A stretch of DNA of 61,040 nt. It comes from Candidatus Undinarchaeota archaeon (GTDB taxonomy: Archaea > Undinarchaeota > Undinarchaeia > Undinarchaeales > JALTGF01). Under the pieces are notes generated by a model. That model was not told the DNA's origin. It worked only from the letters and a program-made list of their open reading frames with translations, and made no database searches. Each line of letters starts with the position of its first letter. Position 1 is the first letter of the stretch. The position numbers and the translations under genes are program-made. Shown here one piece after another: positions 5,915 to 8,479 of the stretch. Location: assembly GCA_964574035.1 (NCBI GenBank), contig CAZNLD010000006.1, positions 1 to 61,040 on the forward strand. The letters run 5' to 3'.

Positions 5915-5982
5915 GGGCAATGATGTCGTGAACACCCTCTGATACCGCCCAAAGATGATGAACGGTGGTAGCTGCAGAGCCC
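5915..5982 (+). ncRNA. box C/D methylation guide sRNA (candidate)
   Basis: Terminal stem GGGC/GCCC; C box ATGATG (5920), D' CTGA (5939), C' ATGATGA (5955), D variant CAGA (5975); two guide segments of about 13 nt. Confidence 0.75.
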
Positions 5983-6002: not shown

Positions 6003-6545
6003 ATGGTAAAGATATTAGGCAGGAAACACAAATTAGAAGATTTACTTCCAAAACTTGAATCTAATGGTCTTCTAAATGCCCAGAGGCGAGATACAGATTA
6101 TGTCTTTTTTGGATTAAATGTAGATGAAGATGAATTAAAAAAGTTGGATTTTAAAGTTGAGTCTTTTGGTTCTTATGGAATGGCGCACAGAAAGAAAGGC
6201 TGGCACGATTTAAAGTTGTCTTGGAAAATTCTCAATATGAAAACCGGTGAAATTATTGCCCAAAATAAAGGGGCTAAAAAAGAAGATAATCCGGAGTTTG
6301 AATCTTTTAAAGGACTTATATTGGATGGTACAACTACTCATACTTTTGAATCAGAACGGAATACAATCCTAAAAGACATCAATTTGACTCCTCTTTGTTT
6401 ACAAGTATATACTGGCCAAACGACTTTTACTGGTTTTTCGTATCGTATATATGTAAACGATTTATATCTTGAAGCCTCTGCTACAGGCGGAGAAAATGGG
6501 CAGCAAGCAGGGTTTGATTATACTTGCGAGATTAAATCTAATTAA
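6003..6545 (+). CDS. hypothetical protein
   Basis: 180-aa ORF between the C/D sRNA and the hairpin array; no family recognised. Confidence 0.65.
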   Translation: MVKILGRKHKLEDLLPKLESNGLLNAQRRDTDYVFFGLNVDEDELKKLDFKVESFGSYGMAHRKKGWHDLKLSWKILNMKTGEIIAQNKGAKKEDNPEFESFKGLILDGTTTHTFESERNTILKDINLTPLCLQVYTGQTTFTGFSYRIYVNDLYLEASATGGENGQQAGFDYTCEIKSN

Positions 6546-6621
6546 TCTATATACTAAATCACAAAAAAACTTAAATACTTCTACTTATTATAAAATAGCC
6601 CCTCAAAAAGAGGAGATAAAA

Positions 6622-7060
6622 TTGGATCAGGGTGGGAGGCAAATGTACTTTCTTCGGAAAGGAAACTTGTTGGCCTTTGCTTCGGCAAAGAACTACCTTG
6701 ATCCACTCACATCATTGGATTGGTGGGAGACAAAAGTAATAGATTCCTCCTGGGAAAACTAAACTTTTGAACACTACCAATCCACTTAAATTCGGACAGA
6801 TGGGAGAACAAGTGAGTTCTTCGGAACTTAACTGTATATCCCTCTGTCCACTATAAACTTGGACAGGTGGGAGATAGGAAAACTTTCTTCGGAAAGCGGA
6901 CCTGAACTTACCTGTCCACTCAAATTTGGAACGGGTGGGAGAACAAGTGAATCCCCCGCAGGGGATTTAACTGTATCCATCTGTTCCACTCTAATATTGG
7001 ATCAGGGGAGGGAAGCGGACTCCATTATTTTATTGGAATTCCGCTTATCTCTGATCCGCT
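6622..7060 (+). ncRNA. tandem array of six related structured RNA hairpins, unknown class
   Basis: Units start GGA at 6624, 6717, 6794, 6861, 6928 and 6999 and close with TCC(A/G)CT; 10-12 bp basal stems with compensatory changes; GGTGGGAGA-type motif; cUUCGg loops. Confidence 0.75.
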
Positions 7061-7114
7061 GCTTCTGAAAGTTTATCAGTAACTATTTTATACACTGCTT
7101 TCTTAACTGAAGGT

Positions 7115-8479
7115 ATGGATAAGATCCTGTCAAAGGTTCTAAAGAGAACGGTTCCTTCAAAAAAGGAAGAAAAGAAAATTAAAGAGTTTGCTGATTCTGT
7201 AATTTCTAAAATTAATGAATTTGGTTACGATGCCGAGCTTGAGGGTTCTCTTGCAAAAGGCACCTGGAATGCGGGAAGTCATGATGTCGATATCTTCGTA
7301 TTTTTTGATAAGGCGGTTTCGAGAAAAGACCTGGAAAAGAAAGGAGTTAAACTCGGCAAAAAGGTCGTAAGAGAATTTGATGCAGAACCTGAAATTGCTT
7401 ATGCTGAACACCCATATGTAAAAACTGAAATAAATGATTATATTCTTGATATCGTTCCTTGTTATAAACATAAGAGCCTTCACTCTCTTAAATCAGCTGT
7501 TGACAGGACTCCTTTTCATACAGAATATATCAAAAGAAAGCTTTCTGAAAAGCAGAAAAATGAAGTAAGACTTTTGAAGAGATTTATGAAGGGAATCGGC
7601 GTCTATAGTGCCAGAGAGGCAGTCCATGGCTTTTCAGGATATCTATGCGAGCTTCTAATCTTAAAATACGGAACTTTCAAAAAAGTCATCAAAGAAGCTG
7701 AAAGCTGGGGGCGTGGTTTGATAATTGATATAGAATGGTTTTATGATGATGAACAAAAGCTTAAAGAAAAATTCAATCATGCTCTGATAGTTATAGATCC
7801 AATCGATAAAAACAGGAATGTAGCAGCAGCTCTTGAAGAAAATAATTTTGATTTATTTATTTTTGCGGCTTCTGAGTTTTTGAAAAAACCAAAATTTGAA
7901 TTTTTCTATCCAAATGAAGTTGAACCTTTTTCTGAAAAAGAACTAAAAAGAGAACTAAAAAAAAGGAGCCCCATATTTTTAGTAAAATTTAAAGCCCCGG
8001 ATTTAGTTGAAGATACTTTACATGCCCAGATGAGAAGCAGTTTGCATTCATTAACTTCTGCTATTAAAAGGAAAGACTTTGAATTTATCGGTTCCTCTTT
8101 CTTTTTAAATGAAGATGCATTCTTCCTGCTTGATTTAGAATTCGATAAACTTCCGGAAATTGAAAAGTTAGAAGGCCCGCCTACTAATGTTGGAAAAGAA
8201 GCTCAAGATGCTTTCTTAAATAAATATAAAAAGTTTGAGCCCTGGCTTGAAGATGAAAGATGGTATGTAGAAGTTCCAAGAGAGTTTACAAAAGCAGAAT
8301 CTGTTATTAATCATATTTTGAAAAATCCTAGAAATCATGGTTTGGCTAAATCTATTTCAAAGCAGATTAAAAAAGGTTATACTATTATGGAAGATTTTAA
8401 GATTAAATCAGCCTATACATGCGGGTTTGAGAAGTTTTTGACTTCTTATTTAACTAAGAAAAAACCATGGGAATGGTAG
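7115..8479 (+). CDS. cca: CCA-adding enzyme (archaeal class I)
   Basis: GSLAKGTW, DVDIF, YAEHPYV, DIVPCY, SAVDRTPFH, GFSGYLCELL, IDPIDKNRNVAAA. Confidence 0.96.
   Translation: MDKILSKVLKRTVPSKKEEKKIKEFADSVISKINEFGYDAELEGSLAKGTWNAGSHDVDIFVFFDKAVSRKDLEKKGVKLGKKVVREFDAEPEIAYAEHPYVKTEINDYILDIVPCYKHKSLHSLKSAVDRTPFHTEYIKRKLSEKQKNEVRLLKRFMKGIGVYSAREAVHGFSGYLCELLILKYGTFKKVIKEAESWGRGLIIDIEWFYDDEQKLKEKFNHALIVIDPIDKNRNVAAALEENNFDLFIFAASEFLKKPKFEFFYPNEVEPFSEKELKRELKKRSPIFLVKFKAPDLVEDTLHAQMRSSLHSLTSAIKRKDFEFIGSSFFLNEDAFFLLDLEFDKLPEIEKLEGPPTNVGKEAQDAFLNKYKKFEPWLEDERWYVEVPREFTKAESVINHILKNPRNHGLAKSISKQIKKGYTIMEDFKIKSAYTCGFEKFLTSYLTKKKPWEW

What the first reader, a model, noticed from the sequence alone, without database searches (positions are those of the whole stretch)
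6622..7060. Tandem array of six structured RNA hairpins upstream of the CCA-adding enzyme gene
Seen in sequence: six units start GGA at 6624, 6717, 6794, 6861, 6928 and 6999 (periods 93, 77, 67, 67, 71). Each has a 10-12 bp basal stem, e.g. GGAUCAGGGUGG/CUACCUUGAUCC, GGAUUGGUGG/CUACCAAUCC, GGACAGGUGGG/CUUACCUGUCC and GGAACGGGUGGG/UCCAUCUGUUCC. The stems differ in sequence but keep pairing. Units share a GGG-AGA internal-loop motif, variable upper stems (four cUUCGg tetraloops), and short linkers of the form ACU-N-AAAUU. G-U pairs and UUCG loops point to a + strand RNA, and a BRE/TATA-like AAAAAACTTAAATA lies near 6564-6577. This does not fit CRISPR, tRNA, C/D or canonical H/ACA RNA. Inference: a polycistronic precursor cut into a family of small RNAs. 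Options are minihelix or acceptor-stem mimics (G1G2...C-C-A discriminator) handled by RNase P/Z and the adjacent CCA enzyme, a guide or antitoxin array for the unknown 180-aa protein upstream, or a protein-binding sponge.
Basis: partly seen in the sequence, partly recalled or inferred. Interest (0 to 1): 0.9.

Follow-up and report, generated by a model that had tools for sequence, protein, structure and literature searches.

The report
Tandem ribosomal-protein-L1 binding-site RNA array
Six neighbouring RNA hairpins in a tiny archaeal genome each copy the spot on ribosomal RNA where ribosomal protein L1 binds, so this looks like a separate small-RNA gene that could soak up several L1 molecules, an arrangement I could not find described.

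Summary
Six divergent hairpins lie head to tail at 6624-7057 on the + strand, each far more stable than shuffles, with strong compensatory change among 13 aligned units from four genomes.

The array is a single-locus feature with its own TATA-like box. It lies directly upstream of cca in 5 of the 12 order genomes (Undinarchaeales-like DPANN archaea) whose cca locus I read. Unit number varies: 6, 6, 3, 4 and 2.

It matches no Rfam family, tRNA, H/ACA, C/D, CRISPR or dispersed repeat.

The conserved core of each unit is a helix top GGUGG paired with CUACC-like, then GA, then a second helix starting with G, and an unpaired A before the returning strand. This is the architecture and partly the sequence of the uL1 site in this organism's own 23S L1 stalk. 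The predicted uL1 operator in its rpl1 leader has it too.

Best reading (about 0.5): an independently transcribed RNA of tandem uL1-site mimics that binds several uL1 and competes with the rpl1 operator as a decoy or buffer. Binding and function are inferred, not shown.

Short contigs from two RNA libraries lie wholly inside the array.

The acceptor-stem-mimic and 180-aa-protein ideas are not supported.

The parts
6570..6577 (+). TATA-like box (CUUAAAUA) of the array's own transcription unit; the start is expected about 23-25 nt downstream, near 6597-6601
   Evidence: Sequence. Similar (C/U)UU(U)AAAUA boxes sit at the same distance before the arrays of G001, G002, G004 and G011 and before rpl1. 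The start site is inferred, not mapped.
6601..6613 (+). Small 5' hairpin (4 bp, A5 loop) before the first unit
   Evidence: Global fold. A small hairpin also lies between the TATA-like box and the first unit in G001, G002, G004 and G011 (read).
6624..6707 (+). Unit 1: 12-bp basal stem, GGUGG-GA-GGC junction, two upper UUCG hairpins, then ACU. It is the most rRNA-like unit of the window.
   Evidence: shares the 8-mer GGUGGGAG with the own 23S L1 stalk and the rpl1 leader.
6717..6786 (+). Unit 2: 10-bp basal stem, GGUGG-GAGA, one upper stem, 3' junction AACA, then ACU
   Evidence: R3 37.2 bits.
6794..6852 (+). Unit 3: 11-bp basal stem with one bulge, GGGAGA, UUCG hairpin, 3' junction GUAUA, then ACU
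   Evidence: R3 71.3 bits. One DNA contig of run X5 skips 6790-6860, which is this one unit.
6861..6920 (+). Unit 4: 11-bp basal stem, GGUGG-GAGA, UUCG hairpin, 3' junction GAA, then ACU
   Evidence: U-G in G000 becomes C-G in G001 at pair 15/44. R3 71.9 bits.
6928..6990 (+). Unit 5: 12-bp basal stem, GGUGG-GAGA, 9-bp upper hairpin, 3' junction GUA, then ACU
   Evidence: C-G becomes U-A in G001 in the upper hairpin. R3 47.8 bits.
6999..7060 (+). Unit 6: 10-bp basal stem, GGGGAGGG junction, 7-bp upper stem with a 9-nt loop, then GCU. It is the most degenerate unit.
   Evidence: only 12.7 bits with R2.
7085..7092 (+). AUUUUAUA: TATA-like box of cca, about 23 nt before its ATG, so the mRNA is probably leaderless. 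Its U4 run may also end the array transcript.
   Evidence: Sequence. A TATA-like box 22-25 nt before the cca ATG is also seen in the other order genomes, with or without an array. Inferred, not mapped.
7115..8479 (+). cca, archaeal class I CCA-adding enzyme (neighbour, not shown to be part of the system)
   Evidence: Pfam tRNA_NucTransf2 5.2e-40, CAA_C 1.1e-31, NTP_transf_2 3.7e-11.

Best explanation
The array is an independently transcribed non-coding RNA. From its own TATA-like box it would be about 450-500 nt long. It consists of six tandem hairpins, and each hairpin imitates the binding site of ribosomal protein uL1 (L1). In each unit the top of the long basal stem stands for helix 77 (P1), the GA that follows stands for junction J1-2, the upper stem stands for helix 78 (P2), and the short A-rich 3' junction ending in an unpaired A stands for J2-1 (loop B). 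The RNA would therefore bind up to six uL1 molecules. In bacteria and archaea, uL1 in excess over rRNA represses its own operon by binding an rRNA-like site on its mRNA. In this lineage the predicted site covers the Shine-Dalgarno sequence of rpl1. A multi-site decoy would compete with that operator and buffer or store free uL1. Shown here: the anatomy, its conservation and covariation, its single locus, its likeness to the own 23S L1 stalk and rpl1 leader, and its presence in RNA libraries. Inferred: uL1 binding, stoichiometry, competition with the operator, and any physiological role.
For: 1) Own 23S L1 stalk. Rfam's archaeal LSU structure laid on G000's 23S reads: helix GGUGG paired with CCACC, junction GA, next helix starting G-C, then a 12-nt loop ending ACA before CCACC. 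The units read: stem top GGUGG paired with CUACC, UUACC, CCAUC or CAACC, then GA, then G, then an upper stem, then a short A-rich junction.
2) The 8-mer GGUGGGAG occurs 9 times on both strands of the 858-kb genome. Four are in the array, one is in the 23S L1 stalk, and one is 8 nt before the rpl1 start codon. The other three are two coding-looking places and one other RNA candidate.
3) rpl1 leaders of the 11 order genomes in which an rpl1 gene was found (11 of 13 searched) share a covarying hairpin (CCAC/GUGG, ACUGC/GCAGU, CUAAUCC/GGAUUAG, CUACC/GGUAG). In 10 of the 11 the hairpin is followed by GA-GG; G004 reads AGGA there. Upstream lies an (A)UCC that can pair with the GG(A)(U). An A precedes the hairpin in all 11. 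This is the same four elements in permuted order.
4) The base just before the returning strand of the basal stem is A in 21 of 21 units. GGAG lies at the junction in 17 of 21 units.
5) The two G011 units also carry the 10-mer UGGAGGCGCC, which lies in the 23S between helix 78 and loop B, in the same order relative to GUGGGAG.
6) Literature. The L1 site is two helices P1 (H77) and P2 (H78) with junctions J1-2 and J2-1, and J2-1 is short in mRNA sites (PMC5689012, passages). The consensus is a 6-12 bp stem with an internal bulge holding a possible G-A pair and an unpaired A (PMC3616713, passages). A 36-nt mRNA fragment and domain I alone suffice for binding (PMC2175363, text read in part).
7) The structure is real. 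In the 13-unit alignment 97.9% of cells are paired, 15 of 20 pairs change on both sides, 0 of 500 shuffles reach this, and slid controls give 27-53% paired.
8) It is its own transcription unit. There is a TATA-like box before the array, and another 22-25 nt before the cca ATG in all loci read.
9) Contigs from two metatranscriptome runs of two studies (264 nt at 6743-7007 and 153 nt at 6859-7007) lie wholly within the array, and none covers the flanking genes.
10) The genome has one canonical rpl1 gene.
Against: No binding was tested. Covariance models built from the units did not find the 23S L1 stalk or the rpl1 leader: R2 with filters off over L016 and L017 gave no hit at those places at E up to 10. 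Rfam's LSU model did not hit the array or the G011 units at E up to 10. The likeness therefore rests on a short motif plus architecture that I compared by eye.

Four of 21 units lack GGAG (G1u3, G4u1, G4u2, G4u3). The rpl1-leader site is itself only predicted, and its GA-GG overlaps a Shine-Dalgarno sequence, which alone could explain part of its conservation.

The strongly conserved GG...CC ends, the ACU tail (19 of 21 units) and the constant place next to cca are not explained by uL1 binding. The covariation alignment was fitted to the model and its rows are related by descent. RNA-library contigs can come from contaminating DNA and show neither ends nor abundance. The array is missing from the cca locus in 7 of the 12 order genomes whose locus I read, so it is dispensable.
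Confidence: 0.5

Rival explanations
1. The units descend from, or converge on, an L1-stalk-like fold but now bind another partner or have another role. They might scaffold something, or dock tRNA for the neighbouring CCA enzyme as the real L1 stalk docks the tRNA elbow. uL1 would then not be the functional ligand.
For: The place directly upstream of cca is constant in 5 of 5 arrays. The GG...CC-ACU ends are conserved beyond what uL1 needs. The L1 stalk is a known tRNA-elbow docking module (PMC3664808, passages).
Against: The elbow-docking part of the L1 stalk is the double T-loop (AG..A before helix 77, UG..A in loop B; PMC3664808). The own 23S has AGCGUA and UGAAA there. I did not see these elements in the units, which carry UUCG loops and short junctions instead. 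What is conserved is the part that domain I of L1 contacts. The same gene order S3Ae, C/D sRNA, cca exists without an array, so vertical inheritance of an insertion site explains the neighbourhood.
Confidence: 0.2
2. One reading: a polycistronic precursor cut at the GG / CC-A ends by tRNA-processing enzymes into minihelix-like small RNAs that the CCA-adding enzyme extends or tags.
For: 20 of 21 units start with GGA, all end with CC, and A follows in 19 of 21. Basal stems are 9-14 bp, near the 12 bp of an acceptor/T stack. The array is next to cca in 5 of 5 cases.
Against: ARAGORN finds 0 tRNA-like genes in 6400-7300. Rfam tRNA hits lie elsewhere in the window. There is no T-loop. The idea does not explain the conserved GGUGG-GA-G motif or the unpaired A. 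A 264-nt RNA-library contig spans about four units, so uncut multi-unit RNA (or DNA) exists. cca has its own promoter-like box.
Confidence: 0.1
3. The array is a cis-acting 5' leader that controls cca expression, by uL1 or otherwise.
For: Same strand as cca, ending 57 nt upstream of its start codon, and this adjacency is conserved.
Against: A TATA-like box lies 22-25 nt before the cca ATG in genomes with and without the array, which implies a leaderless cca mRNA. U-runs follow the last unit in G002 and G004. RNA-library contigs do not reach cca (contigs only, weak). Seven of the 12 order genomes whose locus I read run cca without it.
Confidence: 0.08
4. It is a dispersed repeat (MITE or REP), a CRISPR-like array, or a type III antitoxin-like repeat array.
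For: Head-to-tail units of similar size followed by a gene.
Against: It is one locus only in the own genome (BLAST; model R2) and in relatives. Units are 65-94% alike rather than identical, and TRF finds nothing. The downstream gene is an ordinary CCA enzyme. The upstream ORF is not conserved.
Confidence: 0.02

Closest known systems
uL1 (L1) autoregulatory operator on L1/L11-operon mRNAs of archaea and bacteria
   Same: It is a small hairpin-type rRNA mimic: a 6-12 bp stem, an internal bulge with a possible G-A pair and an unpaired A, and a second helix (PMC3616713 passages; PMC5689012 passages). The units have a 9-14 bp stem, GA after the stem top, an unpaired A before the returning strand, and a second helix. 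Two sites in one transcript are known in Firmicutes (PMC3616713).
   Different: Known sites sit in the rplK/rplA leader or early coding region and act in cis. Here 2 to 6 sites stand on a separate RNA on another contig from rpl1 (C6 against C4), next to cca, with no reading frame to control. No array of more than two sites turned up in my searches.
L1 stalk of 23S rRNA (helices 76-78)
   Same: The 8-mer GGUGGGAG spanning H77, junction and H78 is shared, and a returning strand is preceded by A. Unit 1 and the G002 and G011 units also have a further hairpin, as the stalk does, and the G011 units share UGGAGGCGCC.
   Different: The units lack the two T-loops and the 12-nt loop B. Their helix 77 equivalent runs on into a long closed stem. 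They are not part of an rRNA. Models built from the units do not find the stalk.
Protein-sequestering small RNAs with many binding sites, such as CsrB/RsmZ for CsrA (from general knowledge, no call)
   Same: A stand-alone RNA that repeats the binding motif of one RNA-binding regulator many times and competes with mRNA targets.
   Different: A different protein, motif and domain of life. The analogy is functional only and untested here.
Archaeal multi-hairpin H/ACA guide RNAs
   Same: One to three hairpins in tandem, each with a conserved trinucleotide right after the lower stem.
   Different: There is no pseudouridylation pocket (internal loops are 2-5 nt) and no K-turn or K-loop that I could place. 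The tail is ACU, not ACA. The Rfam HgcG match is 9.6 bits against a cut-off of 77.
Type III toxin-antitoxin RNA arrays (ToxI-like; from general knowledge)
   Same: A promoter, tandem RNA repeats, then a downstream gene.
   Different: Those repeats are near-identical and short, and are cut by the downstream endoribonuclease toxin. Here the units are divergent and the downstream gene is a housekeeping-type CCA enzyme.

Membership tests
uL1-binding RNA site (rRNA H77/H78 junction and L1 mRNA operators) | Two helices (P1, P2) joined by a short 5' junction and an A-containing 3' junction | tested here: met
   MFE folds of 21 units: a basal stem of 9-14 bp, an internal loop or junction, and an upper stem. 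Covariation supports both helices.
uL1-binding RNA site (rRNA H77/H78 junction and L1 mRNA operators) | Conserved G-GA-G at the P1 end, J1-2 and P2 start, as in the organism's own 23S | tested here: met
   GGAG is at the junction in 17 of 21 units and GGUGGGAG in 11 of 21. The own 23S has GGUGG-GA-G. Four units deviate.
uL1-binding RNA site (rRNA H77/H78 junction and L1 mRNA operators) | Unpaired adenosine at the end of the 3' junction | tested here: met
   A immediately precedes the returning strand in 21 of 21 units. The same holds in the own 23S (ACA before CCACC) and in all 11 rpl1 leaders read.
uL1-binding RNA site (rRNA H77/H78 junction and L1 mRNA operators) | Specific binding of uL1 | not testable with these tools
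   No RNA-protein prediction or assay is available here. It needs a gel-shift or filter-binding experiment.
uL1-binding RNA site (rRNA H77/H78 junction and L1 mRNA operators) | Location in the leader or start of the L1/L11 operon mRNA (for operators) | tested here: not met
   rpl1 is on contig C4 and the array is on C6 upstream of cca. The array is therefore not an operator in the classical sense.
uL1-binding RNA site (rRNA H77/H78 junction and L1 mRNA operators) | Detectable by a profile of known sites | tested here: inconclusive
   No Rfam family matched the rpl1 leader. The LSU model does not hit the arrays. The unit model R2 does not hit the stalk or the leader.
tRNA / tRNA-like minihelix | T-arm with T-loop, cloverleaf or acceptor/T stack recognised by tRNA finders | tested here: not met
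   ARAGORN finds 0 genes in 6400-7300. The 3 Rfam tRNA hits of the window are elsewhere.
Archaeal H/ACA guide RNA | Pseudouridylation pocket, K-turn or K-loop, and ACA after the lower stem | tested here: not met
   Internal loops are 2-5 nt. The tail is ACU in 19 of 21 units. HgcG scores 9.6 bits against 77.
CRISPR array / dispersed repeat | Near-identical repeats; many loci, or cas genes nearby | tested here: not met
   Repeat families are 65-94% alike. It is a single locus. The neighbours are r-proteins, Ham1, cca and NAD kinase.

The most novel reading that the evidence does not exclude
A trans-acting 'ribosomal-protein sponge': a stand-alone archaeal RNA carrying up to six decoy sites for uL1. 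It would set the level of free uL1 and thereby tune translational feedback on the L1-L10-L12 operon. This would be a CsrB-like logic applied to ribosome biogenesis, with site number evolving quickly (2 to 6 units among relatives, and a one-unit deletion in an environmental variant).
Probability: 0.3. Interest if true: 0.8.

Novelty: new variant of a known kind. Interest (0 to 1): 0.68.

Why it matters
As far as I know, feedback control of ribosomal proteins has been described only as cis-acting rRNA mimics inside the regulated mRNAs. A separate RNA that multiplies such a mimic would add a trans-acting layer (titration, buffering or storage of a ribosomal protein). It would also be a rare functional lead for a non-coding RNA in DPANN archaea, whose small genomes are otherwise poorly understood. 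The hypothesis is directly testable with one recombinant protein and short transcripts. It also supplies a predicted uL1 operator over the rpl1 Shine-Dalgarno sequence in this order. If uL1 does not bind, the array remains a conserved, covarying structured RNA of unknown function beside the CCA enzyme gene.

Tried and rejected
Rfam. At gathering score the whole window gave only 3 tRNAs elsewhere. At E up to 10, region 6400-7300 gave 5 weak chance hits, the G011 array gave 2 chance hits and no LSU, and the rpl1 leader gave 1 chance hit.

Repeat finders. TRF gave no row in the array.

K-turn, C/D, H/ACA and loop-E readings. I tried to place them by eye on the junction. The GA positions do not fit a K-turn on either strand and no boxes are present. 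This was inspection only.

MAFFT alignments of units (A1, A2, A5) were not structurally coherent and were not used for models. My local MAFFT trials were previews only.

Models. R1, built from unit 4 of two genomes, was too specific. R2 and R3 do not detect the two- and three-hairpin units at significant scores. Unit 1 of G000 gave only partial local hits with R2 and no R3 hit at E 0.01 or better. G1u1 reached 32.4 bits with R3. G2uB was aligned only in part, at 25.2 bits. G11u1 and G11u2 scored 11-13 bits. Model-based absences therefore hold only for single-hairpin units.

Wider searches. A metagenome scan with the cca protein matched 587 pattern stretches, none a relative. A genome contigs pattern scan gave 69 loci, about the number expected by chance. 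Only 2 of them carry units by R3: L077, which is G001-like, and L048, which is G002. BLAST of the G011 array against 5 genomes gave only short hits, the two I read being in coding-looking sequence.

Does u1 pair with u6 to close the whole array? It is possible in G000 and G001, but I judged by eye that it is not conserved in G002 or G004, and the global MFE keeps six separate hairpins.

A C/D sRNA guide targeting the units: the units hold no 9-nt or longer match to either guide.

The stop of both RNA-library contigs at 7007 is unexplained. A 16-nt repeat shared by the starts of units 1 and 6 ends there, but it is shorter than the assembler's word length, which I recall as 31.

Parts of the stretch without contig cover prove nothing.

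Supplements of papers were not consulted. The alignments of L1 sites in the supplement of PMC3616713 could bear on the membership test.
Full report
THE OBSERVATION

Six units begin with GGA at 6624, 6717, 6794, 6861, 6928 and 6999.

- Each unit folds on the + strand into a hairpin with a 10-12 bp basal stem. MFE is -24.6 to -32.9 kcal/mol and z is -4.39 to -5.45, and none of 200 shuffles per unit folds as well.
- The - strand folds are weaker in 6 of 6 units.
- The whole stretch 6597-7095 keeps six separate hairpins plus a small 5' hairpin, with z -9.8.
- The units are too divergent for Tandem Repeats Finder. Direct-repeat families are 65-94% alike.
- The short ORFs across the region are not conserved. 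The same-genus array differs by indels of 1 and 2 nt.

WHAT IT IS NOT

- No Rfam family reaches its cut-off in the window except three tRNAs elsewhere. At E up to 10 the region gives only chance hits, the best being 16.8 bits against a cut-off of 50.
- ARAGORN finds nothing.
- The array is a single locus in its own 858-kb, 29-contig genome, which is 84% complete (BLAST; model R2).
- The upstream 180-aa ORF has no Pfam match. It is unrelated to the ORF at the same place in the same-genus genome and absent from the other arrays' loci.

RELATIVES

BLAST over 61 genomes found the array in G001 (same genus, 92% identity) and G002 (same family). I then fetched the cca locus, found in 12 of the 13 order genomes, and read the upstream DNA.

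- Arrays lie directly upstream of cca, on the same strand, in 5 genomes: G000 (6 units), G001 (6), G002 (3), G004 (4) and G011 (2).
- I saw no array there in the other 7 (G003, G005, G006, G007, G008, G009, G012). Several of these keep the order S3Ae, C/D-box sRNA, cca.
- Units can carry one, two or three upper hairpins, mostly with UUCG loops.
- A public record that holds the G001-like array is titled Candidatus Undinarchaeales archaeon.

Covariance model R3, built from 13 single-hairpin units of four genomes, hit only those four genomes among the 17 of the phylum and among 151 archaeal genomes, always at the cca locus. It misses the G011 units, so absences hold only for single-hairpin units. 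A pattern scan of 185,579 species genomes gave 69 loci, of which only two (G001-like and G002) hold units. A metagenome scan with the cca protein found nothing.

STRUCTURE IS UNDER SELECTION

On the 13-unit alignment 97.9% of cells pair and 15 of 20 pairs change on both sides. No shuffle out of 500 reaches the observed values, except for the count of further pair types (2 of 500). Sliding the partner by 1-3 columns drops pairing to 27-53%.

Two caveats apply. The alignment was fitted to the model, and the rows are paralogues and orthologues, so they are not independent. Several stem positions are mostly G-U, which fits only the + strand.

THE KEY LIKENESS

The conserved core is not the upper hairpins but the junction: GGUGG at the top of the basal stem, then GA, then G. 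I looked for this in the organism's own RNAs.

- The 8-mer GGUGGGAG occurs 9 times in the genome on both strands. Four are in the array, one is in the 23S rRNA, one is 8 nt before the start codon of rpl1 (the uL1 gene), one is in another small-RNA candidate, and two are in coding-looking sequence.
- The 23S copy is in the L1 stalk. With Rfam's archaeal LSU structure laid on it, it reads: helix GGUGG/CCACC (helix 77), junction GA, helix 78 starting G-C, and a 12-nt loop ending ACA before CCACC.
- The units read the same way: stem top GGUGG paired with CUACC, UUACC, CCAUC or CAACC, then GA, then G, an upper stem, and a short A-rich junction.
- The base just before the returning strand is A in 21 of 21 units. 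GGAG is at the junction in 17 of 21.
- The two G011 units also share UGGAGGCGCC with the 23S segment between helix 78 and loop B.

THE rpl1 LEADER

An rpl1 gene was found in 11 of the 13 order genomes. In all 11 the leader has a covarying hairpin (CCAC/GUGG, ACUGC/GCAGU, CUAAUCC/GGAUUAG, CUACC/GGUAG). In 10 of the 11 it is followed by GA-GG (G004 reads AGGA), with an upstream (A)UCC that can pair with the GG(A)(U). An A precedes the hairpin in all 11.

These are the same four elements in permuted order, with P1 capped by a loop and P2 formed by the flanks, and they cover the Shine-Dalgarno sequence. I read this as the lineage's uL1 operator. That is a prediction, and the Shine-Dalgarno sequence alone could explain part of the conservation.

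WHAT IS KNOWN ABOUT L1 SITES

I read passages of these papers, not whole texts, except part 1 of PMC2175363.

- L1 binds 23S rRNA and, when in excess, an rRNA-like site on its own mRNA. The affinity for mRNA is more than ten-fold lower. A 36-nt mRNA fragment and domain I alone suffice (PMC2175363).
- The recognised core is two helices, P1 (helix 77) and P2 (helix 78), with junctions J1-2 and J2-1, and J2-1 is much shorter in mRNA (PMC5689012).
- The consensus of bacterial sites is a 6-12 bp stem with an internal bulge holding a possible G-A pair and an unpaired A. Two sites occur in one operon in many Firmicutes (PMC3616713).

The units fit this description and look like mRNA-type sites. Unit 1 and the G002 and G011 units are more rRNA-like.

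TRANSCRIPTION

A TATA-like CUUAAAUA lies at 6570-7. Matching boxes stand before the other four arrays and before rpl1. The expected start, near 6597-6601, is followed by a small hairpin. A second TATA-like box lies 22-25 nt before the cca ATG in genomes with and without an array, so cca is probably leaderless with its own promoter. All of this is inferred from sequence.

Of 12 runs that hold part of the stretch I laid four.

- Two metatranscriptome runs from two studies each give one contig that lies wholly within the array: 264 nt at 6743-7007 with 18 differences, and 153 nt at 6859-7007 with 5 differences. Their differences match the G001-type sequence. Neither run covers the flanking genes. 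A second contig of the same run (219 nt) fits only 30 nt, at 6677-6706, and then runs on unlike.
- This fits an expressed small RNA, but contigs show neither ends nor level, and DNA can be present in RNA libraries.
- Both contigs end at 7007, which I cannot explain.
- Two DNA runs from other habitats hold diverged arrays. One contig skips 6790-6860, which is exactly one unit.

MECHANISM PROPOSED

The array is a separate RNA that presents six uL1 sites. It would bind free uL1 and compete with the single operator on the rpl1 mRNA, so it would act as a decoy, buffer or store. The anatomy and its conservation are shown. Binding and the regulatory effect are inferred.

AGAINST THIS READING

- The unit models do not find the L1 stalk or the leader, and Rfam's LSU model does not hit the arrays. 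The likeness therefore rests on a short motif plus architecture.
- Four units deviate at the motif.
- The conserved GG...CC-ACU ends and the constant place beside cca are not explained.
- Seven of the 12 order genomes whose locus I read lack the array at the cca locus.

RIVALS

- The fold was recruited for another partner, possibly linked to tRNA or cca (0.2). The T-loops that dock tRNA on the real stalk are not seen in the units.
- Minihelix-like small RNAs processed and CCA-tagged (0.1).
- A cis leader of cca (0.08).
- A repeat element, CRISPR array or antitoxin array (0.02).

NOVELTY

The motif belongs to a known kind, the uL1-binding rRNA mimic. A stand-alone tandem array of 2-6 such sites away from rpl1 did not turn up in my searches. 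Those searches cover open-access papers and preprints only. I therefore file it as a new variant of a known kind, with moderate confidence in the ligand and low confidence in the physiological role.

Noticed in passing
window 5916-5980 (+): Probable C/D-box sRNA: AUGAUG at 5920, CUGA at 5939, AUGAUGA at 5955, CAGA at 5975. It is conserved between the S3Ae gene and cca (or the array) in most order genomes. The guide before the internal CUGA has a 10-nt match in the own 23S rRNA (C7:7201).
   Followed up: partly
G000 contig C9:20117-20215 (L018 1118-1215, +): An intergenic RNA candidate of about 100 nt with a TATA-like box and a U-run, z -3.5. BLAST finds it in 13 of 13 order genomes, with a core GGGAGGUGGGAGAAUGGCAU. 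It has no Rfam hit. It shares GGUGGGAGAA with the array units, but in some families that stretch is fully paired, so it need not be a uL1 site. Function unknown.
   Followed up: partly
G000 contig C4:60440-60480 (L017 about 1420-1460); L114-L123: Predicted uL1 operator in the rpl1 leader: a covarying hairpin followed by GA-GG (AGGA in G004) that covers the Shine-Dalgarno sequence, seen in the 11 order genomes in which rpl1 was found (11 of 13 searched). No Rfam family matches it.
   Followed up: partly
window 6003-6545 (+): A 180-aa ORF without a Pfam match. It is unrelated to the ORF in the same position in the same-genus genome and absent in the other families, so it is either a lineage-specific gene or not a gene.
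   Followed up: partly
window 6743-7007: Contigs from two RNA libraries of different studies both end at 7007, nine bases into unit 6. A 16-nt repeat shared by the starts of units 1 and 6 also ends there. It could be an assembly effect or a real RNA end. Unexplained.
   Followed up: no
L007 about 700-1200 (G004, upstream of its array): Two near-identical copies of a stretch of about 100 nt ending in CUGAGCAA-like motifs lie upstream of the G004 array. They may be duplicated C/D sRNA genes.
   Followed up: no
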